A stretch of DNA of 64,000 nucleotides from an uncultured bacterium (GCA_963729625.1 CAVSOU010000011.1:864001-928000), one strand, 5' to 3'; shown: positions 47,344 to 64,000, numbered from the stretch's first letter. Program-made: numbers and translations. Notes: generated by a model not told the origin, from the sequence alone.

Positions 47344-47553
47344 CCGCCGACGGCCATGCCGCTGCCCGCCAGCACCGCGACCATTCCGCCGACGGCCATG
47401 CCGCTGCCCACCAGCACCGCGACCATTCCGCCGACGACCATGCCGCTGCCCACCAGCACCGCGACCATTCCGCCGACGACCACGCCGCTGCCCACCAGCA
47501 CCGCGACCATCCCGCCGACGACCACGCCGCTGCCCACCAGCACCGCGACCGCG
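47344..47553 (+). repeat. 5 x 42-bp coding tandem repeat (PPT[AT][MT]PLP[AT]STATI linker)
   Basis: Unit CCGCCGACG(G/A)CCA(T/C)GCCGCTGCCC(G/A)CCAGCACCGCGACCATT repeated five times. Confidence 0.9.
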
Positions 47554-49867: not shown

Positions 49868-49933
49868 CAGAGCGTAGCGGGGTGAATAGGAATGCTTGGT
49901 GAGACGCTAACTCTCGACGGTCGGACAGCGGAG

Positions 49934-51068
49934 ATGCGGGTTGCTAGCCAAACGCGACACAATGAGCTATGGCTGACGGAGGTCGATCCCAAAGCGGACC
50001 CGAACTGGGATAGGTTTGTCGCGACACACTCTAGCGGACTGGTCTACCACCGTTCGGCGTGGCTTCACGCGCTAGAACTAGAGTATGGTTGCAAGCCTAT
50101 CGGCATTGAGTGCAAGTCTGGCGACGGCCAGATCCGCGGGGTCCTCGCCGCTCCTTCCCACTAGGGGGCTGCCGTTCCGCATCGGGGCTCGCTGGCCGGA
50201 CCTCGCCTATCGTCACTCCCGCGTACGCCGATAGCCGGTCCACTCTTTCTTGATGGTGCGGCCGCAACTGTTCTGCTCCAAGCGGCCGTGAAGCGGTATC
50301 CATGCTGAGCCGCGCTTGCGCCTCCAAATCAAGCTCTGGTCCGACGAGCTTGTAGGACTCGTGGATGGATTGGCCGCGCTCCCCTGGCGGCTGACATTCG
50401 TGTTGGATCTTCCAGCGCGGCCTGACGAACTCACGTTCGGCGGTCCGAAGCACCGTGAGCGACTCAGATGGGCGGCCCGCAAGGCTGTTAGGCTGGGAAT
50501 GGTGATTCGGCCTGCGGAGACAGAGGGCGAGCTCAGGGCCTGGTACAAGCTCTACTTAGAAACTATGCGGTGGCACATGGTACCCCCGAGATCCTACCGC
50601 TTCTTCCGGGCCTGCTGGGAGTTGCTCCGGCCGCACGGGCTGATGCGCCTGCTGCTGGCAGAACAGCATAGCGCGGCTCACTGTACAATAGTTGGCGGCT
50701 CGATTTTTCTGATGTCTGGCCAAACCGTCTTTTACGCCTTTAACGGATGGTCCCGGAGAGGGGCTTTGTTGCACCCGAATGACGCAATTCTGTGGAAAGC
50801 GATCCACGATGCCTGTCAAGGCGGCTTCCGGCAGTTCGATTTCGGCGAAGTCAGCGCTGACAATGAAGGGCTGGCCACTTTCAAGCGCAAGTGGGGTGCA
50901 GAGGCAAGACAGATGTATCACTACTACTACCCCGCGCCGCAGGTGGCAGAATCGGACCCATACGAGTCAGTTCCCAGGGTTGCTAGCCGTCCCCTGAAAG
51001 TGGCTTGGCATGCTGTGCCGCTTCGCGTGACCGCCCCGCTAGGCAGTTGGATCTATCGGCGCCTTTGA
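49934..51068 (+). pseudogene. FemAB/BioF2-like GNAT acyltransferase, several frameshifts at ~50150-50300
   Basis: WDRFVATH...VYHRSAWL, RLSSLPRTPIAGPL (middle frame), PPRSYRFF, PNDAILWKAI, FDFG...GLATFKRKWGA. Confidence 0.8.
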
Positions 51069-51508
51069 GTGACGCTCGCCGAGGGGCAAGAGCGCTTACG
51101 CCTCAGGTCCCAATTGGTCATGTGTCGGCGCGGGCCACGGTCTGCGGCCTGTTGAGCCACCTACTGGAGAACGATGACAAGATGCACATGGACTGGCTTG
51201 AAATGGCATATCGAATCGCTATTGCCGGCTGTGATTGATGTACCCGTGAGCCACCGGCCATCCGGCAGACAGCAGCCGCAGCCGGCGGCGGCTTCGACCT
51301 CGATAGTTGCTGCGTGGCACAGCCGGGCAAGAAGGGGTTTCAGGTGGTCAGCCGCATGCGCGTGCCCTGAGTGCCAATCACGAGGGCGCGCGCCGGCTCG
51401 CTGTTGGTCACGGTTGGGAGTTACGACTACCGATCGAAGGAAGGTGTCCGCTAGGTGGCTATGATTGAGCCGAGCGCCGTCCCGCGAGGGATGTCATGTG
51501 CAGGAGGC

Positions 51509-51639
51509 ATGATGGAGATTCTCTTCGAACAAAGTCGGGGACTAGACGTTCACAAGAAGACGGTGGTCGCCTGCCTGGTGACACCGGCGGACGCGGGGCG
51601 CGTGCGGCAAGAGTTGCGGACGTTTGGCACGATGACCAA
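51509..51639 (+). mobile_element. IS110-family transposase N-terminal fragment
   Basis: RBS AGGAGG, then MEILFEQSRGLDVHKKTVVAC...RTFGTMT; similarity ends abruptly at ~51639. Confidence 0.85.
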
Positions 51640-51690
51640 CCGGATGGCTTTGCGTCCCCGTCTCACGACGGGTTTGCCCTGTTTCACTGG
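51640..51690 (-). promoter_or_regulatory. c-di-GMP-I riboswitch aptamer, 3'-truncated (G20 type)
   Basis: Minus strand reads AAACAG-G-GCAAACCCGTC-GTGA-GACGGG-GACGCAAAGCCATCCGG, then runs into IS110 sequence. The 3' half is missing. Confidence 0.8.
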
Positions 51691-52298
51691 GGAACGCCTC
51701 CGGGCAGCTGTCGGCCTGCGGTCGCAGTCCCCGTTGCACGATATCGAGATTAGCGGCGATAAACTCTGGTTACTATCGCCATGCTTCGTCCAGTCTAGGT
51801 GCCCGGCCGAATAATCACCATCGCCTATCCTGGGGAGCCTGCCTGGATGGCCCATGTTGGATGGCTGTTTCGGCCTTGCCAGCATTTATTACACGATAAC
51901 ACAAGAATACATAGTAAAAATTGTATGTCATGGTGTTAAGGCAGCCCCTGCCGTCGGTGCGTTGCCGGCTGCGTGAAGAACCGTGGGAGTGGACTACTCG
52001 TTGTTGGCAGTCTTGCTGGACAAGTCGGACGCAATGAGGAGCGCCCCATCGATGTCCACGATAGCCGTCGTGCCGCGCATGCCGAGTCTGCCGTGACCGA
52101 GCACCCGAACCTGCTCGCCCATGGCAATCGAGTCCGCACTGAGACCGCCATCCAGGGCATGCGGCAGGGTTTGGCTCGAGTGGATGCGCCGTTCTGTAAG
52201 GCGGTGATAGGTGATCGCGTTACACCATCAACGTCTGACTGAGGAGGATATTCTCTTGAGCGCGTCAAACCACGTTCAGGTATGGCGTGACCATATTC

Positions 52299-52436
52299 AG
52301 CGTGCTGCGCTGTTAGTAGTACTTTTGGGTGCCGAATACAGCATTTTCGGGATGGCGCCGACCCTTGTCTGTTCTACTGTGAGTAGCGGACAGCTCATGA
52401 CACGGAGATTATGCCCGGGGCACCTTGGTCTCCGCT
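52299..52436 (+). repeat. diverged non-coding repeat copy A (candidate promoter/operator module)
   Basis: About 80% identical over the first 93 nt (19 mismatches by hand count) to 53832-53967; contains ATGGCG-17-TACTGT. Confidence 0.75.
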
Positions 52437-52638
52437 TCGCGAGCGTTGCGGCGGGCCGGGTCTCTCCGCGCTGGGCTGGCCCAAGCCGCTTGTCTTGGGA
52501 GCGCGGCGCGCCAGCTCCGTTTCATAGTGGCGCTTGGTGCCAGTTGTGCGCTCAGGGCCGGCAGCATCTGATCTTTGGCCAGGCAATTCTAGCTAGTTCT
52601 TACTATATAGGGCCTGACACGAGAGAGGAGAAGCGTCG

Positions 52639-53589
52639 ATGCGTGTCCTGGTAACTGGCGGGGCAGGTTTCATCGGCTCCCACATCGTCGATGCGGCGAT
52701 CGCAGCCGGTCATACGGTGGCGGTGGTAGACAACCTCTTGCAGCACGGGGGGGGCCGGCGGGAGAACGTGCATCCTCTGGCACGTTTCTACCAGGTCGAC
52801 ATCAGCCACGGCTCAGCGCTGCGCGCGGTATTCACTGAGGAGCAGCCCGAGATCGTCTACCATGAGGCAGCCCAGGCTAGCGTCACGATCTCCGTTGATG
52901 ACCCAGCGCTGGACGCCCAGATCAATATCCTCGGGCTGATCAACGTTCTGCAATCCAGCGTGCACGTGGCCGCGCGCAAAGTGATATTTGCTTCGTCTGC
53001 TGCTATCTTCGGCTCAGTAGCCAGTCTTCCGGTGACGCCCGCGACGCCTACACTGCCTGAATCGCCGTACGGGATCTCCAAGATGGTGGCTGAACACTAC
53101 TTGCGCTTCTGGAAGACGGCCTACGGCCTTGAGTATACGGCGTTGCGCTACGGCAATGTCTATGGGCCGCGCCAGAATCCCAACGGCGAAGCCGGCGTGA
53201 TTGCCGTCTTCACGCAGCGCATTCTGGACGGGAAATCGGTGCGTATCGACGGAGACGGAGAGCAGTCTCGCGACTTCGTGTATGTGGGCGATGTAGCGCG
53301 GGCCAATATGCTCGCACTGGAGCATGGCGACGGCCAGGCGCTGCTTGTGGGCACCGGCGTCCCCACGACGATCAATGCAATCTATCGGCAGCTCACCGTG
53401 CTAACCGGGGTAGCAGCACCAATCACCTATGCTCCCACCCGACCGGGCGACATCGCCCAGGCCTATTTCGACATCACGCAAACAGTGCGGTCTCTTGGAT
53501 GGCGCCCACAGTTTGACGTCGCCTCTGGCTTGCGCGGGACTGTCGACTACTTCCGCGCACGGAACGCGCAAGGTGTGACCAGCGTCTAG
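52639..53589 (+). CDS. NAD-dependent UDP-hexose(amine) 4-epimerase (GalE/PelX-like)
   Basis: VTGGAGFIGSH, AAQASV, ASSAA, PYGISK, LRYGNVYGPRQ, RDFVYVGD. Confidence 0.92.
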   Translation: MRVLVTGGAGFIGSHIVDAAIAAGHTVAVVDNLLQHGGGRRENVHPLARFYQVDISHGSALRAVFTEEQPEIVYHEAAQASVTISVDDPALDAQINILGLINVLQSSVHVAARKVIFASSAAIFGSVASLPVTPATPTLPESPYGISKMVAEHYLRFWKTAYGLEYTALRYGNVYGPRQNPNGEAGVIAVFTQRILDGKSVRIDGDGEQSRDFVYVGDVARANMLALEHGDGQALLVGTGVPTTINAIYRQLTVLTGVAAPITYAPTRPGDIAQAYFDITQTVRSLGWRPQFDVASGLRGTVDYFRARNAQGVTSV

Positions 53590-53831
53590 TGCATCGCTTT
53601 CCTAGCCGTCCCCGGCCACCCCGCCGTAGGTGCGAGCCCGCAGGCGCTCACGTCCGGACCAGTCGCAAGGCGACGGGCGTACCACGTTCGTGAGCTAAAG
53701 CCTCCCTCGGATGATGCCCAGCCGGCTTTCGCTGTTGCCGGAGTTGATCGGGCCCTCTGGCAGCATCCTCACGCTGCTGCCGGAAGCGGTCCAGGCTCGA
53801 TCGTGCGGGTTCGGCACAGCAAGATCTCCCA

Positions 53832-53967
53832 AGCGGGCTGATCTGTTAACAGTGCTCTTGGCTGGCGACTACAGCATTTGCGGGATGGCATCGAGCCTTC
53901 TCTGTTCTAATGTGAATACCGGATAGCTTTGACGCGCAGATAGTACCTGGGCACCTTTGTCTGCGCT
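53832..53967 (+). repeat. diverged non-coding repeat copy B (candidate promoter/operator module)
   Basis: Aligns to 52299-52436; contains ATGGCA-17-TAATGT. Confidence 0.75.
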
Positions 53968-54277
53968 GAGCGAGTGGTGCAACCGGCCAGATCTCTCTGT
54001 AGTGGGGCGATCGAGGCCGTTTTTCATAGTTGAGCGCCGCGTGGTCCGGCAAGTGGTGTGGTGTGTCAATGAGTGGGCCCGGGCAGGCGCCGAGAATTGA
54101 GGTGGTTGCATATCGCCGTTCCCGCGCCTCTCAGCGACGGCGAACACCGCCGGTAGCGTGTCGGCAACAGGATCGGCGAACAGCACGGCGCTGCCCATGG
54201 GTTCCTTCATGCTTCCCAATAGCGCTCGCCGTTGACGCACGTTCGTCATCCGCGCGCACGACCGAAAGGGCTCGCCA

Positions 54278-55720
54278 GTGATGGCTACAGAACAGCGACA
54301 GGTGGCGCAGGACGCAGTACCACGACCTGCTTTGCAGTCGGTCGGATTGCTGGAAGCGTTCGTTGGCGTAGCCCTGGTAACGACCGTCGCCATGTTCGTA
54401 CCTGGGAATTGGGGACTGCTGGGGGTCCAGCCACACCCACTGTGGCTGGTGGTGCTGGCCATCGCCATACGCTACGGCACCGCAGCTGGGTATGCCGGAG
54501 GAGCATTTGCAGCCTGCGCGTATTGGCTGATGCTTTGGCTCCAACCAGGTTCAAATGGCCAGCTTCCGGCAGCGTACGAACTCTTGCAGCCGCTACTACT
54601 GTTCGTCGGGGGCGCCATTACCAGCGAGCTTGTGCAGAGCGAGCGCGAGCGCGGCAAGCATGCGGAAGACGATCGCCGCAGGGTAACCGCCGAGCTCCAG
54701 GAAGTCACGCAGCGATGTGCGGCTTTGCAGGAGGTTCATGAGGAGCTGCAAAAGCGGATCGTCGGCCAGACAGCGTCGATCATCAGTCTCTATGAGGTGG
54801 CCAAGCAGCTAACCACGCTGGATGCCAAAGCGCTCTGCAAGTCAACAGTCAACCTCGTCGTGAACTATATCGGAGCGGACGCCGCTTCTCTCTATCTGCG
54901 GAATAGCCAGGGTGATCTGGAACTGCAGGCCCGCGTGCCTCCCGTGGACAGCTTGCGTCGCACCGTTCTCGACCCGAGAAGCGGCCTGGTGAGCCGAGCG
55001 CTGCGCGAGGCCCGGGTCGTGACGCTCCACGAGCAGCTGCCCAGCAGCATGGCGGATTTAGGCGAGGGGGTGCAAGCCGTGATGGCTGGCCCGCTGCTCG
55101 ACGAGTCCGGGCGCGTGTGCGGCGTTGTTGTGGTCGAACGCATGCCATTCATGAAGTTCACACCAGCTACTGTTCAGTTATTCGACCTGCTCGTGGACTG
55201 GGCCTCGACTGCGCTGCAAAGCGCCGAGAGCCATGCGCTGGCGCGCGCGAGAAACATCATGGATGAGGAAACAGGAGTGTACACATCGTCGCACACGCTC
55301 GCACTCCTGCGCAAAGAATTCAATCGAAGCCGTCGTTATCAGCTGCCGCTATCGCTGATCGTGATGCGCATGCGCTCGTTTTCCAATCATCGGTCTGCAT
55401 CCCGGATTCAGTCGGAGCTGCTCGCGCGAGTAAAGCCGCATTTGCGGTCGGTCGACGTGTTGGGGCAGGCTGGCGAGCCCGGTACATTAGCCCTGATCCT
55501 GCCTCTCACAGAACTTGCCGGCGCACGGCGCGTCGCGCTGCGGATTCGCGACGATATTCAGGCGAACATCGCAGATGACGACCTTGGTCTTGTCACCGTG
55601 CGAACCGGGGTCGCAGCTCTCTCGAACGCGCACTCCGAACCGGAAGTCATGCTCGCGAGCGCTCTGGCAGGTATGGACGACGCCGCGCTCGATCTCATCA
55701 TTGGCGAAGCGGCTTCATGA
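54278..55720 (+). CDS. pelD: PelD-like c-di-GMP receptor (TM + coiled coil + GAF + degenerate GGDEF)
   Basis: PHPLWLVVLAIAIRYG TM region, GAF with VERMPFMKF, GGDEF fold lacking the GGDEF motif but with RxxD (LRSVD). First gene of the pelDEFG order. Confidence 0.82.
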   Translation: MMATEQRQVAQDAVPRPALQSVGLLEAFVGVALVTTVAMFVPGNWGLLGVQPHPLWLVVLAIAIRYGTAAGYAGGAFAACAYWLMLWLQPGSNGQLPAAYELLQPLLLFVGGAITSELVQSERERGKHAEDDRRRVTAELQEVTQRCAALQEVHEELQKRIVGQTASIISLYEVAKQLTTLDAKALCKSTVNLVVNYIGADAASLYLRNSQGDLELQARVPPVDSLRRTVLDPRSGLVSRALREARVVTLHEQLPSSMADLGEGVQAVMAGPLLDESGRVCGVVVVERMPFMKFTPATVQLFDLLVDWASTALQSAESHALARARNIMDEETGVYTSSHTLALLRKEFNRSRRYQLPLSLIVMRMRSFSNHRSASRIQSELLARVKPHLRSVDVLGQAGEPGTLALILPLTELAGARRVALRIRDDIQANIADDDLGLVTVRTGVAALSNAHSEPEVMLASALAGMDDAALDLIIGEAAS

Positions 55721-55745
55721 TTACACCCCGTCAAGGGGACGAACG

Positions 55746-56936
55746 ATGACTGGATGGAGCCATATGCAACGACTCCCGCGCCAACTGTGTGGTGCAGCGC
55801 TTGCGGTGTCCGGGCTTGGCGCGGATTGTGTCGCGGCAGTGTGGGTGCTGGATACCGCGGACCCGCGGAGTGCGCTGCTTCATATGGCAGCAGTGGTCGT
55901 GTGGATCGCCGGTGTGAGAATGCTCGCCGGAGAGCGCCACGATCTGGAATCACACGCGGACCGTCGCCGGCGGATAAGGTCTGCAAACGGGCGCCCCGCC
56001 GCGCGGCCTCGACGACTGTATCTACCCAGCTTCATCTGGACGCGCTTAACAGAATCCTGGACTCCCTCTGACAATACTGCCGCGGGGCGCCTGGTAGCCG
56101 AGGACATGGACGGCTGGACTGTAGTCGCCCTGATCGTCGGACTGGTTCCTTTTCCAGCGGTCGGACCGCTCGCGCTGAGCATCGCACGCGCCGCGGTCTG
56201 GCTGCTCCGATTGGTCCCCAACCCGCAAGACGCGCGGCGCTCCCAGACGGAGCGCGGCCTAGAGATGCCTCACGCCCGTATGGTCTCTATCCAGCGGGAA
56301 CTGGAGGTGCAGCCCATCGTCGATATCCTCCATGGGTCCGACCGCGCGCTCAAGCGCGCGGCCATACATGCTCTCGCCCGTCAACCCAGCGGTGAAGGCG
56401 TGCAATGGCTCAGGGATCTCCTCGTCGATTCAGATGCCGACCTGCGTGACGCTGCGTCATTGGCCCTATTTCGCCTTGAGGTCGACTTTGAACGGGAATT
56501 GCGCCGGGCTGGACGACAGGAAAGCGCGACGCCACCCGCCGCGCTGGCCAGTCTTTACATCCGCTATGCTCGCAGTGGACTGCTCGACGACATATCCGGT
56601 GCGCTCTATCTCCACAAAGCGTGCGACGCCCTGCAGCAGGCAATTGCCGCAGAGCCTGATTGCACCAGACTTCAGTTCCAGCTCGCATCACTGCAAAGCG
56701 AACTTGGCATGGAGGCAGAAGCGTGTGAGACGCTCGAGTGCGGACTCGGTTCGGGACAAGTCGACGCGCAGAGCTGCCTGGAAGGTATGGATATTGCCTT
56801 CCGCAATGGACGATGGGAGCAGCTTCTGCAGCTTGCACAGAGGGCACGGCTCGTGTTCGACGATGACCCTGAGCCCAAGGCCCTGATCCAGTGGTGGACC
56901 GAAGCGCACTGGGACGTGGTTGGGAGCGGCGCATGA
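55746..56936 (+). CDS. pelE: PelE-like membrane protein with HEAT/TPR repeats
   Basis: N-terminal TM helices, VQPIVDIL...KRAAI, HEAT repeat, YARSGLLD, TPR-like end. Lies between pelD and pelF. Confidence 0.68.
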   Translation: MTGWSHMQRLPRQLCGAALAVSGLGADCVAAVWVLDTADPRSALLHMAAVVVWIAGVRMLAGERHDLESHADRRRRIRSANGRPAARPRRLYLPSFIWTRLTESWTPSDNTAAGRLVAEDMDGWTVVALIVGLVPFPAVGPLALSIARAAVWLLRLVPNPQDARRSQTERGLEMPHARMVSIQRELEVQPIVDILHGSDRALKRAAIHALARQPSGEGVQWLRDLLVDSDADLRDAASLALFRLEVDFERELRRAGRQESATPPAALASLYIRYARSGLLDDISGALYLHKACDALQQAIAAEPDCTRLQFQLASLQSELGMEAEACETLECGLGSGQVDAQSCLEGMDIAFRNGRWEQLLQLAQRARLVFDDDPEPKALIQWWTEAHWDVVGSGA

Positions 56937-58438
56937 TAGCCGACGTCTGCGTGCTTGTCGAAGGCACCTATCCATACGTGGCGGGGGGCGTCTCGAGCTG
57001 GATTCATACGCTGATCCGCAACCTCCCCCAGTTCACCTTCAGCGTTGTCTATCTTGGTTCTACACCCGAGCAGCGAGGAGAGCGACACTACGAGTTACCG
57101 GAAAACGTGATCGACTTTCGCGAGCTGTTTATTCATGACACGAAGTGGACGATTGCTCGGCGCGCACCACGGTATGACCCGGAGCTTTGGACAGCGCTAC
57201 GCGACTTTCATCTTACCGGGGCTACTGGGAAGCCAAGCAGCTATGCGACCATGTGCCGCCTGCTTTGCGAGAATATGCCAGGCACCATCTCGGCCTTCGA
57301 TCTCTTCAGTGCCAAGCAGAGCTGGGACATGATCGTCAAGATGTATGCCCTGCGCGCAGCTGACTTCCCATTCATGGACTACTTTTGGACCTTTCGTCTC
57401 ACGCATCTCCCGATTCTGTATCTGCTTGAAGCTGAGATCCCCAAAGCTCGGGTCTACCACACGCTGAGCGCCGGCTATAATGCGCTCCTTGGCGCGTTCG
57501 CCAAGATTCGTTCCGGTGCCCCCTTGCTCATGACCGAACACGGGATTTACACGCGGGAACGCGATATTGAGATCGCGCAACTCGACTGGATCCGAAGCCC
57601 TCACCAGAGTGAGCACATCGTCTCGGCCACGCCAGGCTACTTCCAGCGTTGGTGGGGAGAGATGTTCCGCTACATCACGCATCTCTCCTACGAACTATCG
57701 GATCGGGTGATCTCGATCACCGCCGCAAACCAGCGCTTTCAGCTCCAGAACGGGGCCGAACCTGAAAAGATGCTGGTAATTCCGAACGGCATCGATGTTG
57801 AGCACTTGCGCGGTGTGCGCACGGCATCGCGTGCCGACACAGATCGCTTCACCATTGGGTTTGTCGGACGGGTCGTAGGAATAAAGGACGTCAAGACTTT
57901 CATTCGCGCGATCAAGATCGCAAGCACTGTGATCCCGAATCTGCTGGCATGGATAGTTGGACCGGAAGGCGAGGAGCCTGACTATGCTGCGCAGTGCCAT
58001 GAATTGGTCGAAACACTTGGTCTCACGGAGTTGATCGCGTTCACCGGTCCTCAGGATGTTCGCGAGTACTACAGTCAGATGGACGTGCTAGTTCTGACTA
58101 GTCTGAGCGAGGCCCAGCCGCTCGTGATCCTGGAGGCAAATTGCGCGGGCGTGCCTGCAATCGCGCCAGACGTTGGCGCTTGCCGCGAGCTACTGTACGG
58201 GATTACCCCGGATGACCAGGCACTCGGTCCAAGTGGTGTGATCACGCCTCCCGCACACCCGCGTGCAACAGCCGACGCACTGGTCCAACTCTGGCGCGAT
58301 GACGCATTGCGAGCGCGGATGTCGACGGCCGGGGCTGAACGGGTGCGACGGTACTATGGGCAGGAAAGCCTGTTCGCCGCATATGGCGATCTCTATCAGC
58401 AGTACATTGACATGTCACCAGTGGAAGCAGAACGGTAG
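56933..58438 (+). CDS. pelF: GT4 glycosyltransferase PelF (DUF3492)
   Basis: EGTYPYVAGGVSSW, TEHGIYTRER, GRVVGIKDVKTFI, LTSLSEAQPLVILEA. ATGA overlap. Confidence 0.95.
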   Translation: MIADVCVLVEGTYPYVAGGVSSWIHTLIRNLPQFTFSVVYLGSTPEQRGERHYELPENVIDFRELFIHDTKWTIARRAPRYDPELWTALRDFHLTGATGKPSSYATMCRLLCENMPGTISAFDLFSAKQSWDMIVKMYALRAADFPFMDYFWTFRLTHLPILYLLEAEIPKARVYHTLSAGYNALLGAFAKIRSGAPLLMTEHGIYTRERDIEIAQLDWIRSPHQSEHIVSATPGYFQRWWGEMFRYITHLSYELSDRVISITAANQRFQLQNGAEPEKMLVIPNGIDVEHLRGVRTASRADTDRFTIGFVGRVVGIKDVKTFIRAIKIASTVIPNLLAWIVGPEGEEPDYAAQCHELVETLGLTELIAFTGPQDVREYYSQMDVLVLTSLSEAQPLVILEANCAGVPAIAPDVGACRELLYGITPDDQALGPSGVITPPAHPRATADALVQLWRDDALRARMSTAGAERVRRYYGQESLFAAYGDLYQQYIDMSPVEAER

Positions 58439-58443
58439 CGCGT

Positions 58444-59820
58444 ATGGCTGGCATTGGCTTGCGATTGCATCGCTTGGTCGACCGGGGGACGTATTTCCAG
58501 GCGGCGGGCGCCTATGCGGCGTCCGCCATTATCTCCGCGGGGCCCTGGCTATCCGCGGTTTTCTGGGTCGGACTTCTCGGCAGCGTCGCCTCCACTTTCT
58601 TGAATCCGACAGATCGCGCGCTGATGCTTACGACGATCAGCTACGTGTTCTGCGCGAGCCTGTTGGTAACCGGCGGGCCTCAATTGCTCGTGACCCGGTT
58701 CCTGTCGGATCGCCTGTATGTAGATGATGAGGAGGCATTGGCGCCAACCTGCACTGGGGTGCTACTTGCGGCGATCCCCCTGCTGGTCATTGCATTGCCG
58801 TTCCTTGCGTTCGCGCCATTCGATCTTCGCTACCGGTTGCTTGCCACGAGCCTGTTCATCTCCGTCTCGCTGGTCTGGATGCTCGTCGTCTTCTTATCCG
58901 CAACTCGCGACTTCGTCCGCATAGTGGTGGTGTTTCTGTCTACGTATGGCCTGAGCGCGCTCGCGGCACTCGGGCTTGGACACATATTTGGCCTTCTGGG
59001 CTGCCTGTATGGCTTCACGCTCGGGCAACTCGTGTGCCTGTGTCTGCTTGTCGCGCATGTATATCTGGAGTTTCCACCGTCAAGAGGAATTCAGCTCGGC
59101 TTCCTGAGTTACGGAAGGCGGTACTGGGATCTGCTGCTGATCGGGCTCTGCCAGTCGATTGGCCTGTGGATGGATAACATACTTTTCTGGTTTTCCAAGA
59201 ACGGGATCGTTATTGCGCACTTCTACCATGTTTTTCCGGCGTACGACCTGGCGAAGCTCGTCGGCTACCTGTCTACCATTCCCGCTGCCGCGGTGTTCCT
59301 CGTCCGGCTGGAGACCACTTTCTACCAGCATTACGCGAAGTTCTACCGCCTGGTCACCGAAAAGGGTGTTTTGTCGGACATCGTCCTCGCCCGAAAGGGT
59401 ATGGAGAAAGCGGCGCAATCTACGGTTCTGACCATTGTGAAGATTCAGGTCATCGTGGATCTATTTCTGATTGTCTTCGCCAGAGATATCGTGGAGAAGC
59501 TTGGTCTGCCTGATAGCCGGATATCGATTGTGCGCATTCTAGCAATAGGGACGAGCACGCAGTTCGTGCTCATGGTCGGCCTGTTGATGCTCCTGTATCT
59601 CGACGCGCGCCGCCCCGCGCTCAAAGTCACGCTGGTATTCGCCATCAGCAGCCCCATACTCACGTTGCTCACGCTGCGCCTGGGCTCGCCATTCTACGGC
59701 TGCGGCTACCTCGTCGCGGCGCTGGTCTCCGCGATACTGGCGCTTGTCGCCCTCCGTAATCGGCTCCACAACCTGGAGTTCGTGACGTTCATGCTGCAGC
59801 CCATGGAACCCGACGAATGA
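58444..59820 (+). CDS. pelG: Pel exopolysaccharide transporter PelG
   Basis: MAGIGLRL start, IISAGPW, TRFLSDRLY, GLWMDN..FW, YD......YL..IP, ETTFY..Y, LLYLD; about 12 TM helices. Confidence 0.95.
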   Translation: MAGIGLRLHRLVDRGTYFQAAGAYAASAIISAGPWLSAVFWVGLLGSVASTFLNPTDRALMLTTISYVFCASLLVTGGPQLLVTRFLSDRLYVDDEEALAPTCTGVLLAAIPLLVIALPFLAFAPFDLRYRLLATSLFISVSLVWMLVVFLSATRDFVRIVVVFLSTYGLSALAALGLGHIFGLLGCLYGFTLGQLVCLCLLVAHVYLEFPPSRGIQLGFLSYGRRYWDLLLIGLCQSIGLWMDNILFWFSKNGIVIAHFYHVFPAYDLAKLVGYLSTIPAAAVFLVRLETTFYQHYAKFYRLVTEKGVLSDIVLARKGMEKAAQSTVLTIVKIQVIVDLFLIVFARDIVEKLGLPDSRISIVRILAIGTSTQFVLMVGLLMLLYLDARRPALKVTLVFAISSPILTLLTLRLGSPFYGCGYLVAALVSAILALVALRNRLHNLEFVTFMLQPMEPDE

Positions 59821-59854
59821 CGCGAAGGAACATGACGGACTGGGGGGACACATA

Positions 59855-61186
59855 ATGCGCCTGCCACGTTGGCTCGTTCTCGGAATGTGCATCAAGCGCT
59901 GGATCGTGATGCTAACCCTCGGAATCGCGCTAATCAGTCTCAGCGCTGGTTACTTCTTGCGCGCCCTGTACAGTGTCGATGTCAGGTTCCCCAGGTGGGT
60001 TTACTACCTTACCCTCCAGTTCCTCAGCCGAGAGGCCCGCGGCGTGCTGTTCCTTGCCCTGGGGGCCGCGCTCACCGTCATTGGCCTCCTGAGCCTCAGC
60101 CGCACCCTGATCATGGCGCTCCTTCCGCGTCACGGCGCGAATGTCATAGACATCCTCCACTACCGCCTGATGCTCAAGCGCGGTCCGAGAGTGGTTGTAA
60201 TCGGAGGCGGCACCGGCCTGTCCGTGGTACTCACGGGACTCAAGGAGTACACGGGAAATCTGTCGGCCATCGTGACGGTTGCCGATGATGGGGGCAGTTC
60301 GGGCCGCCTTCGGCGAGATATGGGCATCTTGCCGCCCGGCGACTTTCGGCAGTGCCTCGCCGCGTTGGCCGACGTCGAACCCCTGATGACCAAGCTACTG
60401 CACTATCGTTTCCATGAAGGATCGGGCTTGGAGGGACACAGCCTGGGAAACCTCATCGTCGCCGCGATGACCGATATCAGCGGCAGCTTTGAGCAAGGGC
60501 TACGAGAAATGGGGCGCGTCCTCGCGATAAGAGGGCAGATCCTGCCTTCCACGCTTGAAGACATCGTGCTGGTCGCCGAACTGGGCGACAATTCATACGT
60601 CATCGGCGAGTCGAATATGCATGAGGATCACGCATCGACATCCGGCCTGCCCGTAGATCGCGCGCCAATCGCTCGGGTATTCATCAAACCTGCTCATGCT
60701 GCCGCCTATCCAGGGGCAGTACGGGCAATTCTGGATGCCGACATTGTGGTTCTGGGGCCTGGCAGCCTCTATACAAGCATTCTGCCAAACCTGCTGGTGG
60801 AAGATATTCGCCGCGCGCTATCCGCTACCACCGCGTGTAAGGTCTTTGCATGTAATGTCGCCACGGAGCCGGGAGAGACAGATAGCTACGCGATCGAAGA
60901 TTTCGCGGCGGCAATGACGCGGCATACTGGTGAGCAGATGTTCGATGCCATGATCGTCAACACGCGCGTGGACGCCAAGCGCCCACCTGACTGGCACGGT
61001 GAGATCGTGCAAAGCAGGACGGCCTGCCGAATAGGAACCCGTATTATCGCCGCCGATGTGGTGGATCAGAATAATGCAGCGCGCCACGATCCGGCGAAAC
61101 TGGCGCGCGCGATCATGCGCACGTGGGCAGAATCCACGCGCGTGAACGCTATCCTGCCCGGCAGGAATTCGGCACGCTCGCGATAG
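59855..61186 (+). CDS. yvcK: YvcK/GlmR (UPF0052) UDP-GlcNAc-binding protein with N-terminal TM helices
   Basis: VVIGGGTGLS, VTVADDGGSSGRLR, PPGDFRQC, GHSLGNL, GPGSLYTSILPNL, NVATEPGET, RHDPAKLA. Confidence 0.93.
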   Translation: MRLPRWLVLGMCIKRWIVMLTLGIALISLSAGYFLRALYSVDVRFPRWVYYLTLQFLSREARGVLFLALGAALTVIGLLSLSRTLIMALLPRHGANVIDILHYRLMLKRGPRVVVIGGGTGLSVVLTGLKEYTGNLSAIVTVADDGGSSGRLRRDMGILPPGDFRQCLAALADVEPLMTKLLHYRFHEGSGLEGHSLGNLIVAAMTDISGSFEQGLREMGRVLAIRGQILPSTLEDIVLVAELGDNSYVIGESNMHEDHASTSGLPVDRAPIARVFIKPAHAAAYPGAVRAILDADIVVLGPGSLYTSILPNLLVEDIRRALSATTACKVFACNVATEPGETDSYAIEDFAAAMTRHTGEQMFDAMIVNTRVDAKRPPDWHGEIVQSRTACRIGTRIIAADVVDQNNAARHDPAKLARAIMRTWAESTRVNAILPGRNSARSR

Positions 61187-61359
61187 GGCAAAGGCTACAC
61201 CTGCCACTGCACCACCTCCGCGGACCAGCTCACATACACGATTTGAACGGTCCGTGGACACCCTGCTGGAGCTAGAGGGACAACGATTGCGGCACGCCGC
61301 CGGTTTGCCCGCCCGGGCTGAGGCTGCCTGGAAGCTGCCCAGAGGCGGAAAATTCGTTG

Positions 61360-61388
61360 TTGACTATTCCGTATTGAGTGGATAGTCT
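61360..61388 (+). promoter_or_regulatory. sigma70-type promoter upstream of the GH114 gene
   Basis: TTGACT-17 bp-TAGTCT in a locally AT-rich patch. Confidence 0.55.
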
Positions 61389-61606
61389 GAACTAATGCGT
61401 GCTTTGCGTCGTATCGGCAGCCTAAGCCGGCGATCGGGGAAGGGAAGAGGATTGCAGGAATCGCCGGCGCCCGCCTCAAATGAGGAGCCATGTGATGCGC
61501 CCGGAGGAGGCAAGCTGTCGGCGTGCAAGCCGCAAGTAAATGCCGGCGGTCCGAATCGCGTTGAGCAGCGGATCGCTCGTGCCCAGGATAAACCTCGGAG
61601 GATCCA

Positions 61607-63151
61607 GTGACAATTCGTAGACTTGGCGTGCCACTTCTCACCCTCTGTCTTGCGTTGCCACTTTCGAGCATCGCGCGGCCAGAGGGCTCGGGCCAGGTCG
61701 TTTCGGCTCAGACCTCGTCGTCTGTGACCCTGTCCCCTGTCTCCATTACCAACACGGAAGGCACGACGGGCGGTCAGCCGGTCTCGGCGCTTGGCGTAGA
61801 AGATCAGTCTGGTACTGCGAACGACTGGAACAAGTACGTCGAATTCGACGGGCTTTACACCGGTTATCGAACCTATGACTTGAGCACCAGTGTTGCGCCA
61901 TCCAGCGTCAGCGTCATTGCCGTAAGCGTGAACTATCAAGGACCGGCCAAGGTAAACCAGGACTGGACATGGAGCATCTACGACTGGCTTCAATCGAAGT
62001 GGGTGGCGGTCGGAGACAATGGCGCGGCGCCCGATTGGGGTGCGTGGACATTGCTCAGGTTCAGTGCGACAGGAGCCCTGGCCAATTACGTCAACCCAAC
62101 GAGCGGCCAAATACGTGTCCAGGTGTCCTCGAACAACGCATCCGACAATATGGACCTGGACTACGAGTCCGTATCCGTGACTTACGGCAGCCAACCACAG
62201 CCAACCTCGACGAGCACCTCGATAGCGGCCACCGCGACACGCACGCCCACGCGCGGAACATCCACCAACACGCCGGTGCCGCCAACCGCGACACGCACGC
62301 CCACGCGCGGAACATCCACCAACACGCCGGTGCTGCCAACCGCGACACGCACGCCCACGCGCGCGACATCCACGAACACGCCGGTGCCGCCAACCGCGAC
62401 ACAGGCCCCGGCTCCAGGCAGCAGCCTATGGCGACCGACTCCCGGCACGACGTGGTTCTGGGAGATCGGTGCAACGCCCAACCTGAGCAGCCTCCACGCG
62501 GTCCAAGCGTATGACATCGACGGATTCGACAACCCGGCCTCGACCGTCGCCACACTCCACAGTCACGGCATCAGAGCGATTTGCTACATGGATGGCGGGA
62601 CCTACGAGAACTGGCGGCCCGACGCTGGGAGCTTCCCGTCCGGCCTGCTTGGAAGCTCGAATGGATGGCCAGGTGAGAACTGGCTGGATGTGCGCCCAAG
62701 CGGCGCCTACTACGGGACCCTGAAGTCGATCATGCAAAGCCGGGCGCAGGACTGCAAGAGCCACGGTTTCGATGCGATCGAGTGGGACAACGTGGACGGG
62801 TATACGAATTCGACAGGATTTCCCATCACCGCGGCCGACCAGATAGCCTACAACACATTCCTCGCGGGCGCGGCGCACGCGGTCGGGCTGTCCGTGGCAC
62901 TGAAGAACGATACCGATCAGGTTTCGACTCTTCAACCAAGGTTCGATTTCGGCATCGACGAGGAGTGCTTCCTGTACTCGGAGTGCAGTTCCGAGACGCC
63001 GTTCATTAACGCCAACAAGGCGGTCCTTGAGGTCGAGTACCAGGAAGACGGCATGACCACGTCCAAGTTCTGTCCGCAGGCCAATGCCATGCGCTTCAGC
63101 TCGGCGCTGGCAACCCTGAACCTGGATGGTCCCTGGACACCCTGCTGGTAG
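61607..63151 (+). CDS. secreted GH114-family endo-alpha-1,4-polygalactosaminidase with N-terminal beta-sandwich and Pro/Thr linker
   Basis: Signal peptide; YDIDGFD, ICYMDGGTYENWRPDA, WPGENWLDVR, GFDAIEWDNVDGY, ALKND, EECF.YSEC, VEY. Confidence 0.92.
   Translation: MTIRRLGVPLLTLCLALPLSSIARPEGSGQVVSAQTSSSVTLSPVSITNTEGTTGGQPVSALGVEDQSGTANDWNKYVEFDGLYTGYRTYDLSTSVAPSSVSVIAVSVNYQGPAKVNQDWTWSIYDWLQSKWVAVGDNGAAPDWGAWTLLRFSATGALANYVNPTSGQIRVQVSSNNASDNMDLDYESVSVTYGSQPQPTSTSTSIAATATRTPTRGTSTNTPVPPTATRTPTRGTSTNTPVLPTATRTPTRATSTNTPVPPTATQAPAPGSSLWRPTPGTTWFWEIGATPNLSSLHAVQAYDIDGFDNPASTVATLHSHGIRAICYMDGGTYENWRPDAGSFPSGLLGSSNGWPGENWLDVRPSGAYYGTLKSIMQSRAQDCKSHGFDAIEWDNVDGYTNSTGFPITAADQIAYNTFLAGAAHAVGLSVALKNDTDQVSTLQPRFDFGIDEECFLYSECSSETPFINANKAVLEVEYQEDGMTTSKFCPQANAMRFSSALATLNLDGPWTPCW
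62231..62401 (+). repeat. 3 x 54-bp coding tandem repeat (TATRTPTRGTSTNTPVPP linker)
   Basis: Unit ACCGCGACACGCACGCCCACGCGCG...CCGGTGC(C/T)GCCA repeated three times. Confidence 0.9.
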
Positions 63152-63222
63152 GAGCGCGGCTCTGAGCCAGTCGAGCGGCCTCATCAGAGGCCGAAGCGCC
63201 AGGGCCGTCGCACAGCAGAGAT

Positions 63223-63252
63223 CGGGAGCAATGCCACGCGGTATTGCTCCCG
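63223..63252. terminator. hairpin downstream of the GH114 gene
   Basis: CGGGAGCAATGCC-ACGC-GGTATTGCTCCCG. Confidence 0.5.
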
Positions 63253-63363
63253 CTGTATTCGGGGCGCAAGCACGATGCGTGTGAGCTCGGACGAAAACCG
63301 CGCTTAACCCCTTGTGCGCCGCGCCGATAAGCCTGTAACTACGACTGTCGGAGGCATCCGGGT

Positions 63364-63410
63364 GCGGCGAGGCGCCCTGCCACGGGTCTCGTGGCAGGGC
63401 GCCTCGCCGC
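63364..63410. terminator. perfect 21-bp inverted repeat between convergent GH114 genes
   Basis: GCGGCGAGGCGCCCTGCCACG-GGTCT-CGTGGCAGGGCGCCTCGCCGC; no long U tract. Confidence 0.65.
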
Positions 63411-63443
63411 GTATGTAGCGTTGCGCTGCTCTGGGCTTGCCGG

Positions 63444-64000
63444 CTACCGGCAAGCCACGCGGTATGAGTTCAGACTATTCTTCTTCTTCATCGCGTAGAA
63501 GCCCATACTGTTTGCCTGCGCACAGAACTTGCTGGTACTGAGCGAGTATTCGACGTCGTATACCGGCTTACCCGCCGCGATGAACAATTGGTAGTTCGTG
63601 CACTCCTTGTACTGGAAGCACTGCTCAGCGAGCTCCCAATCGAAGATCGACACCAGATCAGGCGCCTGCTCGAAGTCGTTCTTGAGCGCGATGGACATGC
63701 CCCGCGAATGTGCCTGTCCGGCCAGCCAGGTGTTGAACGTCAGCTGGTCCTGATAGGTCAGGGTGAACCCGGTCGTATTCACGAAGCCATTCACGTTGTC
63801 GGCCTCGACCGCGTCGAAGCCTTTCTGCTTGCACAGGTCGAACCTGGCACTGAGTATCGGTTCCAACACCGATAGCTGCCGAATGTCCAGCCACTTCTCG
63901 TCGGTGTAGGGCGGCTCGAAACTTGCGCCCTTCAGACTATCCGGGTAGCTGGAAGCGTCGGGCCGCCAGTTCTCCCACGTCCCTGCGTCGAGGTAACATG
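63444..64000 (-). CDS. second GH114-family polygalactosaminidase (5' end outside the window)
   Basis: CYLDAGTWENWRPDA...EKWLDIR...KGFDAVEADNVNGF...IALKND...EQCFQYKEC...VEY; frame open to the window edge. Confidence 0.92.
   Translation of the reverse strand, partial: CYLDAGTWENWRPDASSYPDSLKGASFEPPYTDEKWLDIRQLSVLEPILSARFDLCKQKGFDAVEADNVNGFVNTTGFTLTYQDQLTFNTWLAGQAHSRGMSIALKNDFEQAPDLVSIFDWELAEQCFQYKECTNYQLFIAAGKPVYDVEYSLSTSKFCAQANSMGFYAMKKKNSLNSYRVACR

What the first reader, a model, noticed from the sequence alone, without database searches (positions are those of the whole stretch)
52639..64000. Variant Pel-like exopolysaccharide system: epimerase-pelDEFG-yvcK plus two GH114s, without pelB/pelC or a visible deacetylase
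Seen: a tightly spaced pelD-E-F-G-yvcK run, a C4-epimerase upstream and convergent GH114 genes downstream. Nearby are a GNAT, duplicated GH-A enzymes, two GEMM-I aptamers and a diguanylate cyclase. Known: Pel is an alpha-1,4-GalNAc/GalN polymer made by PelDEFG. Diderms add PelABC, Bacillus cereus-type monoderm loci carry a PelA deacetylase inside the operon, PelX-type epimerases supply UDP-GalNAc, and GH114 (Ega3) cleaves alpha-1,4-GalN. Inference: a distinct monoderm, probably Chloroflexota-type, Pel architecture with riboswitch control, a dedicated precursor module and possibly an acyl-modified polymer.
Basis: partly seen in the sequence, partly recalled or inferred. Interest (0 to 1): 0.82.

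Follow-up and report, generated by a model that had tools for sequence, protein, structure and literature searches.

The report
Riboswitch-controlled Pel sugar-polymer operon, Chloroflexota
This is a biofilm sugar-polymer (Pel-type) gene cluster from a Chloroflexota bacterium, switched on by a c-di-GMP-sensing RNA; it is a variant of a known kind, and the enzyme that normally removes acetyl groups from the polymer is not in the stretch we can see.

Summary
The genes are there as described: GalE-type epimerase, pelD-E-F-G, yvcK, then two convergent GH114 genes, the second cut by the window end. There is no PelB, PelC or deacetylase in the 64 kb.

- A c-di-GMP-II aptamer (53912-53997, 58 bits) sits in the pelD leader, with a terminator-like hairpin overlapping its 3' end.
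- An about 80% identical copy of that leader lies before the epimerase, with its conserved 3' core changed.

PelD keeps an RxxD site (RSVD, residues 390-393), so c-di-GMP probably acts at both RNA and protein level.

PelG falls in a Chloroflexota/Thermomicrobiota clade. In 12 of 19 Chloroflexota or Actinomycetota relatives, an Agd3-type (CE18) deacetylase follows pelG directly, often with GH114 or a Sph3-like gene. That arrangement (PelD, GT, PelG, Agd3, GH135) was already tabulated for Rubrobacter in 2020. The window therefore departs from a catalogued class in four ways: riboswitch, yvcK, Ega3-type GH114s, and no deacetylase in view.

The source genome was not retrievable, so a deacetylase beyond 64000 stays untested. 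yvcK looks like the ordinary membrane-anchored Chloroflexota YvcK, and its place beside pelG is not conserved. An acyl-modified polymer has no support.

Verdict: new variant of a known kind, moderate interest.

The parts
52290..52520 (+). Epimerase leader. It is a paralogue of the pelD leader. Its aptamer-like part (52379-52466) keeps the helices but has a changed 3' core.
   Evidence: pairwise alignment, mean column identity 83%; two leader boxes occur exactly twice in the window (0 of 100 shuffles reach 2); 17 of 22 model pairs are canonical, with one double compensatory change; no Rfam hit at E<=1.
52639..53589 (+). GalE/PelX-type NAD-dependent sugar-nucleotide 4-epimerase, inferred to supply UDP-GalNAc
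   Evidence: PF01370, E 1e-60; galE TIGR01179 at 170 bits, below its 262 cut-off; best PDB match 4ZRM at 300 bits; PelX entries 6WJB/6WJ9 at 173-176 bits.
53912..53997 (+). c-di-GMP-II riboswitch aptamer in the pelD leader
   Evidence: RF01786, 58.0 bits (gathering 53.5), E 2.8e-10, full model 1-84; the core motif occurs once in the window (0.01 expected).
53984..54024 (+). Candidate intrinsic terminator: a hairpin at 53984-54019 followed by UUUUU. Its 5' arm overlaps the 3' end of the aptamer.
   Evidence: the hairpin is in both minimum-energy folds (-18.6 kcal/mol for the 56-nt piece; z -1.5, not significant). The consensus scan did not call it.
54278..55720 (+). PelD-like receptor: N-terminal membrane segments, GAF, and a degenerate GGDEF with RSVD (residues 390-393, nt 55445-55456)
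   Evidence: GAF E 2.6e-11, GGDEF E 5e-4; the five best PDB matches are P. aeruginosa PelD chains (E 6e-5 to 2.8e-4). LR[S/A/T]VD is conserved in the window, L001 and L009; coordinates.
55746..56936 (+). PelE-like membrane protein with HEAT/TPR repeats
   Evidence: HEAT_2 and TPR; hydrophobic segments within residues 18-62 and 117-158. HEAT_2 in 10 of 10 proteins at this position; 25-36% identity to the proteins at this position in relatives.
56933..58438 (+). PelF, a GT4 glycosyltransferase (the polymerase)
   Evidence: NF038011 PelF at 500 bits (cut-off 100). DUF3492, E 3e-80; the ATG overlaps the pelE stop (ATGA).
58444..59820 (+). PelG, a multi-pass membrane exporter
   Evidence: PF16933, E 1e-121, full length; placed in the Chloroflexota/Thermomicrobiota clade.
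59855..61186 (+). YvcK/GlmR-family protein (UDP-GlcNAc-binding family) with an N-terminal membrane anchor, 34 nt after pelG
   Evidence: TIGR01826 at 332 bits (cut-off 196); hydrophobic segments at residues 9-35 and 63-81; the roughly 440-aa form is widespread in Chloroflexota.
61607..63151 (+). Secreted GH114a: signal peptide, GH114-associated domain, Thr/Pro-rich linker, and an Ega3-like catalytic domain
   Evidence: GH114 E 3e-73, GH114_assoc E 6e-33; 6OJ1 (endo-alpha-1,4-polygalactosaminidase), E 7.7e-43.
63444..64000 (-). GH114b, convergent with GH114a; its N-terminus lies beyond the window end
   Evidence: GH114 E 1.2e-61, profile positions 44-227; 46% identical to GH114a over 190 residues.

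Best explanation
This is a c-di-GMP-switched Pel-type exopolysaccharide operon of a monoderm Chloroflexota bacterium.

Shown:
- An intact, tightly packed pelD-E-F-G run.
- A class II c-di-GMP aptamer in its leader.
- A PelD that keeps the RxxD inhibitory-site motif in a degenerate GGDEF domain.
- An adjacent GalE/PelX-type epimerase.
- Two Ega3-like GH114 hydrolases.

Inferred mechanism:
1. When c-di-GMP rises, it binds the leader aptamer. The PAS-GGDEF-EAL protein 10 kb upstream is one possible source.
2. Binding holds the aptamer's 3' strand, so the overlapping terminator hairpin cannot form and transcription reads into pelDEFG-yvcK (an ON switch).
3. c-di-GMP also binds PelD, which activates the PelF glycosyltransferase.
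4. PelF polymerises UDP-GalNAc made by the epimerase, and PelG carries the chain across the single membrane. No PelB or PelC is needed.
5. Outside the cell, the GH114 enzymes trim GalN-rich stretches.

That last step implies partial de-N-acetylation. The enzyme is most likely an Agd3-type CE18 deacetylase, as in relatives, encoded outside the 64-kb window.

yvcK is most likely the organism's ordinary UDP-GlcNAc-binding YvcK, co-transcribed here by local rearrangement.
For: Gene identities.
Operon spacing and RSVD.
Aptamer: (58.0 bits against 53.5; E 2.8e-10).
Terminator-like hairpin overlapping the aptamer's 3' strand.
RxxD conserved in the 3 of 8 aligned PelDs that have the GGDEF domain.
Clade placement. 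The 16-row Chloroflexota/Thermomicrobiota clade has SH-aLRT 100. The window is sister to L001/L003/L009/L011 at 94.

Relatives:
- pelD-E-F-G is contiguous in all 11 loci long enough to show it.
- An Agd3-like gene lies directly after pelG in 12 of 19 Chloroflexota or Actinomycetota loci, and upstream in a 13th.
- In 7 of them GH114 follows Agd3.
- A Sph3-like gene lies after pelG in 4.

Literature:
- Ega3 acts on deacetylated regions, and GH114 co-occurs with bacterial Agd3 homologues (PMC7229062 section 13).
- Deacetylase activity is required for Pel in B. cereus and P. aeruginosa (PMC13254593 abstract and passages).
Against: - No deacetylase was seen, and none could be looked for beyond 64000.
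- The 120 listed Agd3-like clusters (of 349 with E<=1e-30) include none from a 942,533-bp contig, the length of the window's source. They include none from the contig lengths of the four closest PelG relatives either. This is weak evidence, because only the top 120 were visible.
- The window's GH114s belong to a different subfamily from the GH114 that follows Agd3 in relatives. They matched only L016 and L040.
- The terminator is not significant against shuffles (z -1.5). It was not called by the consensus scan, and about 250 nt lie between it and pelD.
- Five of 11 P1 pairs of the aptamer are non-canonical.
- PelE homology to characterised PelE rests on position and architecture only.
- Polymer chemistry and c-di-GMP binding are untested.
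Confidence: 0.62

Rival explanations
1. A truly deacetylase-free variant. The synthase makes a fully acetylated, or otherwise different, polymer. The two secreted GH114 enzymes then serve another purpose, such as digesting cationic GalN polymers made by neighbouring fungi or bacteria.
For: - No deacetylase in 64 kb.
- L016, which has the closest accessory genes (epimerase 57% identical, GH114 56%), also shows no Agd3-like gene in its 10 kb.
- No Agd3-like cluster from the source contig or from the nearest PelG relatives among the 120 rows listed.
- GH114a carries its own signal peptide and sits 420 nt after yvcK.
Against: - Deacetylase activity is required for Pel output in both systems studied (PMC13254593).
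- 13 of 19 related loci carry Agd3-like genes.
- GH114 genes consistently travel with such clusters (PMC7229062).
- The window and L016 are both short views of their genomes.
Confidence: 0.15
2. yvcK is a working part of the system. A membrane-anchored UDP-GlcNAc sensor, co-transcribed with pelDEFG, would tie precursor supply (GlmS activation) or the synthase itself to c-di-GMP.
For: - 34-nt gap on the same strand, with no terminator-like site between the genes.
- YvcK/GlmR binds UDP-GlcNAc and is proposed to stimulate GlmS (PMC7525490 and PMC6171935, abstracts in the listing).
- UDP-GlcNAc flux and c-di-GMP/Pel are linked in P. aeruginosa (bioRxiv 10.64898/2026.06.11.731730, passages).
Against: - 0 of 80 pel loci have a YvcK homologue within 10 kb of pelG.
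- All 120 listed homologue clusters include many full-length forms of about 430-450 aa, some labelled Dehalococcoidia, so the membrane anchor is the phylum's normal form.
- No contig length is shared between the PelG and YvcK lists apart from one 1,660-bp coincidence from different sources. The PelG and Agd3 lists share 11.
Confidence: 0.12
3. A rearranged, decaying locus. The deacetylase was lost in the same events that left an IS110 fragment, a truncated riboswitch copy and a frameshifted gene, and the operon no longer yields a working matrix polymer.
For: - IS110 transposase N-terminal fragment at 51509-51650.
- A 47-nt inverted partial riboswitch copy.
- A 1-nt frame break in orfA relative to orfB.
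- A duplicated leader with an altered core.
Against: - All nine genes of the locus have open frames (GH114b is open as far as the window reaches) with third-position GC of 0.67-0.81.
- Their family scores are full length.
- The aptamer scores above the gathering threshold.
- The scars lie upstream of the epimerase, not inside the operon.
Confidence: 0.08

Closest known systems
Actinomycetota/Chloroflexota pelD-(E)-F-G + Agd3 (+ GH114 or GH135) clusters. Example: Rubrobacter xylanophilus in Bamford et al. [quoted passage not shown]
   Same: Same PelDEFG core in the same order, with nothing between pelE and pelF. GH114-family hydrolase nearby. No outer-membrane parts. PelG is in the same clade.
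   Different: - The window shows no Agd3-type deacetylase.
- yvcK occupies the place after pelG.
- Its GH114s are of the Ega3-like subfamily, shared only with L016 and L040.
- It has a c-di-GMP-II riboswitch; 0 of 21 monoderm-type loci have any Rfam riboswitch.
- The Ktedonobacteria PelDs lack the GGDEF domain, whereas the window's keeps it.
Bacillus cereus ATCC 10987 pelDEA(DA)FG with flanking PelA(H) hydrolase and GalE (Whitfield et al. 2020, PMC7112168; PelA(DA) = CE26 + CBM114, PMC13254593)
   Same: Monoderm Pel locus. PelD has a c-di-GMP site. An epimerase and a separate hydrolase flank the operon.
   Different: - No pelA(DA) between pelE and pelF; they overlap by 4 nt.
- The hydrolases are GH114 (Ega3-like), not PelA(H)-like.
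- RNA-level c-di-GMP control. 'Riboswitch' occurs 0 times in that paper's main text.
Pseudomonas pelABCDEFG (+ pelX)
   Same: PelD, PelF and PelG homology. The best PDB matches of the window's PelD are P. aeruginosa PelD. PelX-type epimerase adjacency is seen after pelG in 14 of the fetched loci, mostly Desulfovibrionaceae.
   Different: No PelA, PelB or PelC. In P. aeruginosa transcription control is by a protein regulator (FleQ; recalled, not checked here), not a riboswitch.
Fungal galactosaminogalactan cluster (Uge3, Gtb3, Agd3, Ega3, Sph3)
   Same: An epimerase plus Ega3-type GH114. Relatives add Agd3-type and Sph3-type enzymes. An alpha-1,4-GalNAc/GalN polymer is expected.
   Different: The synthase is the bacterial PelDEFG complex, not Gtb3. 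c-di-GMP control.
c-di-GMP-II riboswitch family (Rfam RF01786)
   Same: Full-length match above the gathering score, with the conserved loop and 3' core present.
   Different: The weak outer P1 has 6 of 11 canonical pairs. The gene context (a pel operon) was not found in print in two full-text searches. A paralogous copy with a mutated core lies 1.5 kb upstream.

Membership tests
Pel synthase core (PelDEFG) | PelF: GT4 glycosyltransferase with the DUF3492 N-terminal domain | tested here: met
   NF038011 at 500 bits against a cut-off of 100. PF11997, E 3e-80.
Pel synthase core (PelDEFG) | PelG: PF16933 multi-pass membrane protein | tested here: met
   407 bits, profile positions 1-452 of 452.
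Pel synthase core (PelDEFG) | PelD: membrane region, GAF, and a degenerate GGDEF with an RxxD site | tested here: met
   GAF and weak GGDEF. The best PDB matches are PelD chains. RSVD lies five residues before GEPGT, which stands in place of GGDEF. Pfam returned only GAF, GGDEF and DUF4118 families for this protein at E<=0.01; I recall a dedicated PelD GGDEF model in Pfam, and none was among them.
Pel synthase core (PelDEFG) | PelD binds c-di-GMP | not testable with these tools
   Motif only.
Pel synthase core (PelDEFG) | PelE: small membrane protein with TPR-like repeats between pelD and pelF | tested here: inconclusive
   Position and architecture fit. No characterised PelE sequence was available for comparison.
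Pel synthase core (PelDEFG) | The product is partially de-N-acetylated alpha-1,4-GalNAc | not testable with these tools
   Inferred from the gene families.
Bacillus cereus-type pelDEA(DA)FG | A CE26/CBM114 deacetylase gene between pelE and pelF | tested here: not met
   The pelE stop and pelF start overlap. No deacetylase family in the window. PDB searches with 5 window proteins and the PelE-position profile listed no 9ZAU chain.
Diderm pelABCDEFG | PelA, PelB (TPR + porin) and PelC (lipoprotein) | tested here: not met
   No such gene among the Pfam results for the window. No dedicated PelB or PelC model was run.
Bacterial Agd3/GH114 exopolysaccharide clusters (Bamford 2020) | Agd3-type deacetylase (CBM87 + CE18) | tested here: not met
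   No PF25115 or PF25116 hit. tblastn best E 0.33. Only the 64-kb window could be tested.
Bacterial Agd3/GH114 exopolysaccharide clusters (Bamford 2020) | GH114 gene(s), a cytoplasmic GT and a multi-spanning membrane protein together | tested here: met
c-di-GMP-II riboswitch (RF01786) | Covariance-model score at or above the gathering threshold | tested here: met
   58.0 against 53.5 bits. The upstream paralogue does not meet it.
c-di-GMP-II riboswitch (RF01786) | Ligand binding and a working expression platform | not testable with these tools
   The terminator candidate comes from folding only.
YvcK/GlmR (TIGR01826) | Family score above the cut-off | tested here: met
   332 against 196 bits.
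GH114 (Ega3-like endo-alpha-1,4-polygalactosaminidase) | Catalytic domain homology | tested here: met
   PF03537, E 3e-73 and 1e-61. 6OJ1, E 7.7e-43, with the DNVDGY and (D/N)E(E/Q)C blocks aligned. That these blocks hold the catalytic acids is recalled, not checked.

The most novel reading that the evidence does not exclude
The locus could be a self-contained, two-tier c-di-GMP circuit for a Pel-like polymer that works without a dedicated deacetylase.
- The epimerase leader would be a class-II-derived riboswitch that has changed its ligand. Its helices are kept, with a compensatory change, but the ligand-contacting 3' core is replaced.
- Precursor supply and polymerisation would then answer to two different signals.
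- The co-transcribed membrane-anchored YvcK would feed UDP-GlcNAc status into the same operon.
Probability: 0.1. Interest if true: 0.7.

Novelty: new variant of a known kind. Interest (0 to 1): 0.4.

Why it matters
Pel is a widespread biofilm polymer. Its published control by c-di-GMP is through proteins: PelD, and transcription factors in Pseudomonas. A riboswitch on a pel operon together with an RxxD PelD would be a compact example of one signal acting on both transcription and enzyme activity. It is easy to test in vitro.

The survey of relatives also adds Chloroflexota to the bacteria that join the PelDEFG synthase to the Agd3, Ega3 and Sph3 enzymes known from the fungal galactosaminogalactan cluster. 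That bears on the proposed bacterial origin of the fungal cluster, an idea already in print.

The altered leader copy before the epimerase is a small natural experiment in riboswitch decay or re-specification.

None of this overturns current understanding.

Tried and rejected
- **Contig-length matching, as a proxy for linkage.** The 120 listed Agd3-like clusters showed no 942,533-bp contig. This is inconclusive, because 349 clusters passed and only 120 were visible. The same trick gave 11 shared contig lengths between the PelG and Agd3 lists. It gave none for PelG and YvcK, apart from one 1,660-bp coincidence.
- **Riboswitches in relatives.** 0 Rfam hits in 21 monoderm-type loci. 0 of 80 loci carry the class II core motif. 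The other 59 loci were not run through Rfam.
- **Consensus terminator scan.** Nothing in the leader; 3 sites in 10.5 kb against 6.2 expected. The hairpin I propose comes from folding and is not significant against shuffles.
- **orfA and orfB as the missing deacetylase: rejected.** No PDB sequence match beyond a Thr/Pro linker. The model (pLDDT 90.3) resembles GH5 mannanases, a glycosidase fold.
- **GNAT as a polymer acyltransferase: rejected as unsupported** (0 of 80 loci).
- **Pfam missed the IS110 fragment.** tblastn against plasmids found it.
- **Not run.** No complex prediction, because I claim no new protein-protein contact. The second structure job and the protein atlas were not used.

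Full report
**What is there.** The window is GC-rich (0.59-0.68 in 2-kb windows). Between 52639 and 64000 the long ORFs with high third-position GC (0.67-0.81) are these.
- A NAD-dependent epimerase, 52639-53589.
- A 480-aa protein with N-terminal hydrophobic segments, a GAF domain and a weak GGDEF match, 54278-55720.
- A membrane protein with HEAT/TPR repeats, about 55746-56936.
- PelF, 56933-58438: NCBIfam equivalog NF038011 at 500 bits against a cut-off of 100.
- PelG, 58444-59820: PF16933, 407 bits, full length.
- A YvcK-family protein, 59855-61186: TIGR01826 at 332 bits against 196.
- A 514-aa secreted protein with a GH114-associated domain, a Thr/Pro linker and a GH114 domain, 61607-63151.
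- A second GH114 gene on the minus strand that runs off the window end, 63444-64000.

The operon is compact: 22 nt between pelD and pelE, an ATGA overlap between pelE and pelF, 5 nt to pelG, 34 nt to yvcK, then 420 nt to GH114a.

**PelD and PelE.**
- The five best PDB sequence matches of the PelD candidate are P. aeruginosa PelD chains, through the GAF domain (E 6e-5 to 2.8e-4).
- Its C-terminal domain has RSVD at residues 390-393. Five residues later comes GEPGT where an active cyclase has GGDEF. That is the layout of an RxxD inhibitory site in a dead cyclase.
- The PelE candidate has hydrophobic segments within residues 18-62 and 117-158, and HEAT/TPR repeats.
- All 10 proteins at this position in the window and nine relatives carry HEAT_2. 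A profile of them matches only designed or natural repeat proteins in the PDB.
- I had no characterised PelE sequence, so PelE membership rests on position and architecture.

**Epimerase and hydrolases.**
- The epimerase is closest to short GalE enzymes (4ZRM, 300 bits). It also matches the PelX entries 6WJB and 6WJ9 (173-176 bits).
- Its action on UDP-GlcNAc is inferred.
- GH114a matches A. fumigatus Ega3 (6OJ1, E 7.7e-43).
- GH114b is 46% identical to GH114a.

**RNA elements.** Rfam finds three things in the window.
- The important one was not in the finding. It is a complete c-di-GMP-II aptamer at 53912-53997 (58.0 bits, gathering 53.5, E 2.8e-10), 280 nt upstream of pelD.
- Folding puts a 13-pair hairpin at 53984-54019, followed by UUUUU. 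Its 5' arm is the 3' strand of the aptamer's P1 plus the end of the conserved core.
- The two structures exclude each other, so ligand binding should favour read-through.
- This is inference. The hairpin is not significant against shuffles, and the consensus scan did not call it.

A second point is new. The 230 nt before the epimerase (52290-52520) are a paralogue of the pelD leader (mean column identity 83%). Two boxes are shared, and they occur only at these two places in the window.
- Across the 22 model base pairs, both copies have 17 canonical pairs.
- The epimerase copy shows one double compensatory change and three one-sided changes that keep or improve pairing.
- Several bases of its conserved unpaired 3' block are different, and it gets no Rfam hit even at E<=1.
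- It is either a relic or a re-specified aptamer.

The two 'GEMM-I' elements of the finding are as follows.
- A c-di-GMP-I-GGC variant at 45912-45986 (61.4 bits).
- A weak minus-strand hit at 51688-51632. It lacks the second hairpin and is a 47-nt inverted partial copy of the first. It lies next to an IS110 transposase N-terminal fragment.

**Whose locus is it.**
- PelG has only four homologue clusters at 66-72% identity. About 65 more lie at 41-58%, and those that carry names are labelled Thermomicrobia, Chloroflexi, Chloroflexota or Ktedonobacteraceae. The rest drop to 37% or less.
The best locus is 51% identical.
- I built a PelG tree of 76 rows. L018 and L058 were dropped for in-frame stops; L024, L033 and L042 for short matches.
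- In it the window sits in a 16-row Chloroflexota/Thermomicrobiota clade (SH-aLRT 100). It is sister (94) to L001, L003, L009 and L011. An Actinomycetota pair lies outside that clade (97).

**What relatives look like.**
- In all 11 Chloroflexota loci long enough to show it, pelD, pelE, pelF and pelG are contiguous, with nothing between pelE and pelF.
- I ran Pfam on 105 flanking ORFs of 12 loci and tblastn over all 80 loci.
- An Agd3-type deacetylase (CBM87 + CE18) lies directly after pelG in 12 of the 19 Chloroflexota or Actinomycetota loci. It is divergently upstream in a 13th (L001).
- Pfam showed it for eight of the 12; for the other four the evidence is tblastn only.
- In seven loci a GH114 gene follows the deacetylase.
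- In L001, L003, L009 and L011 a Sph3-like (Spherulin-4) gene follows pelG.
- L016 has an epimerase (57% identical to the window's) and an Ega3-type GH114 (56%) just before pelD. It shows no Agd3-like gene in its 10 kb.
- The Ktedonobacteria PelDs end after the GAF domain. Only the window, L001 and L009 keep the GGDEF-like domain.
- No relative has a YvcK homologue near pelG (0 of 80).
- No relative has a riboswitch: 0 Rfam hits in 21 monoderm-type loci, and 0 of 80 with the class II core motif.

**The missing deacetylase.**
- Nothing in the window resembles CE4, CE18 or the B. cereus enzyme.
- Every ORF of 80 aa or more, in six frames, over 44000-64000 was scanned, as were the called genes elsewhere.
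- tblastn with relatives' Agd3-like and Sph3-like proteins gave noise.
- Two published points bear on this. Ega3 acts on deacetylated stretches, and GH114 travels with bacterial Agd3 homologues (PMC7229062, section 13 read). Deacetylase activity is needed for Pel in B. cereus and P. aeruginosa (PMC13254593, abstract and passages).
- I therefore think a deacetylase encoded elsewhere is most likely, but I could not test it.
- An indirect look did not show one. Of the Agd3-like clusters, 120 of 349 were listed, and none came from a 942,533-bp contig or from the contigs of the four nearest PelG relatives. In contrast, 11 other PelG contigs reappear in that list.

**yvcK.** Its 120 listed homologue clusters are mostly 430-450 aa with 95-100% coverage. 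Several are labelled Dehalococcoidia or Chloroflexota. The N-terminal membrane anchor is therefore the phylum's usual form, not a Pel-specific adaptation. Co-transcription with pelG is plausible here, but the link is not conserved. The YvcK/GlmR family binds UDP-GlcNAc and is proposed to stimulate GlmS (abstracts), so a functional tie to precursor supply remains a minority reading.

**The neighbours.**
- orfA (46231-47703) and orfB (48437-49867) are 93% identical over 355 residues.
- orfA's signal-peptide part is in another frame, because of a 1-nt difference near 46223.
- The family is rare: 71 representative clusters in 1.84 billion. It has no Pfam, NCBIfam or PDB sequence match.
- A model of good confidence (pLDDT 90.3) resembles GH5 mannanases at TM about 0.53 and 14% identity.
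- 'GH-A-like' is therefore fair, but it says nothing about the substrate.
- The GNAT is FemAB-like.
- Neither these proteins nor the GNAT occur in any of the 80 pel loci. I do not count them as parts of the system, although orfA lies behind the GGC-variant riboswitch.

**What is known already.**
- Whitfield et al. 2020 described Gram-positive pelDEA(DA)FG with flanking hydrolase and GalE. Its main text contains none of 'Chloroflexi', 'riboswitch', 'YvcK' or 'CofD'.
- Bundalovic-Torma et al. 2020 does not mention Chloroflexi in its main text. I did not read the supplements of either paper.
- Bamford et al. 2020 reported bacterial Agd3 homologues in operons with a cytoplasmic GT, a multi-pass membrane protein and GH114 (section 13). 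[quoted passage not shown] The five supplement files held contain no 'Chloroflex', 'Ktedonobacter' or 'Thermomicrob'.
- Two full-text searches combining pel terms with riboswitch or Chloroflex terms found no paper on either subject.
- A review of c-di-GMP control of exopolysaccharides mentions riboswitches only once, among the kinds of c-di-GMP effectors in its introduction.

**Verdict.** It overstates the novelty of the architecture. The clade's normal form includes an Agd3-type deacetylase and was catalogued in 2020, and the window cannot show whether this genome has one.

What is particular to this locus:
- the class II riboswitch together with an RxxD PelD;
- the duplicated leader with an altered core in front of the epimerase;
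- the Ega3-type GH114 pair;
- the yvcK insertion.

I rate it a new variant of a known kind, with interest 0.4.

Noticed in passing
window 45912-45986 (+) and 46040-47703: A c-di-GMP-I-GGC variant riboswitch (61.4 bits, gathering 59) precedes orfA. As far as I recall, the ligand of this variant class is not settled. orfA's signal-peptide segment is out of frame with the rest, through a 1-nt difference from orfB near 46223. This is either a pseudogene or an assembly error.
   Followed up: partly
window 46154-47240 and 48652-49737: Tandem duplication about 2.5 kb apart, 96% identical in DNA. It carries a rare secreted protein family (71 representative clusters in 1.84 billion) with no Pfam model. 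The model (pLDDT 90.3) has a clan GH-A-like barrel nearest to GH5 mannanases. orfA also has six 42-nt Thr/Pro-coding repeats at 47294-47603.
   Followed up: yes
window 51509-51691: An N-terminal fragment of an IS110-family transposase (plus strand; tblastn E 7e-8 to 1e-4 against plasmid records) abuts a 47-nt inverted partial copy of the GGC riboswitch. These are scars of a rearrangement between the GNAT and the epimerase.
   Followed up: yes
window 52379-52466: A class-II-like aptamer paralogue before the epimerase. Its helices are kept (17 of 22 pairs, one compensatory change), but the conserved 3' core is changed and it gets no Rfam hit at E<=1.
   Followed up: partly
window 40949-44023: A 1024-aa HTH(MerR-like)-PAS x4-GGDEF-EAL protein with GGDEF and EALVR motifs intact. 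It is a candidate source or sink of the c-di-GMP that the riboswitches read.
   Followed up: partly
window 34395-35921 (-) and 26923-28125 (+): DnaA and FtsZ genes lie in the window. No skew switch or DnaA boxes were looked for.
   Followed up: no
window 14752-16830: An ORF with RHS/YD-repeat shell (Teneurin YD-shell, E 2e-56), followed by small ORFs with no family. Possibly a polymorphic-toxin cassette.
   Followed up: no
loci L004, L005, L008, L012, L016, L018: The Ktedonobacteria-type PelD proteins end after the GAF domain and lack the GGDEF-like c-di-GMP-binding domain, as reported for streptococcal PelD.
   Followed up: partly
window 59855-61186: The protein collection returned the window's PelG at 100% identity, but no YvcK above 74%. 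The window's yvcK product seems to be absent from that collection, or to be called differently there.
   Followed up: no
locus L002: This contig is titled as a Proteobacteria MAG, but its PelG groups with Ktedonobacterales (L007, L016; SH-aLRT 100). It is probably a mis-binned contig.
   Followed up: no
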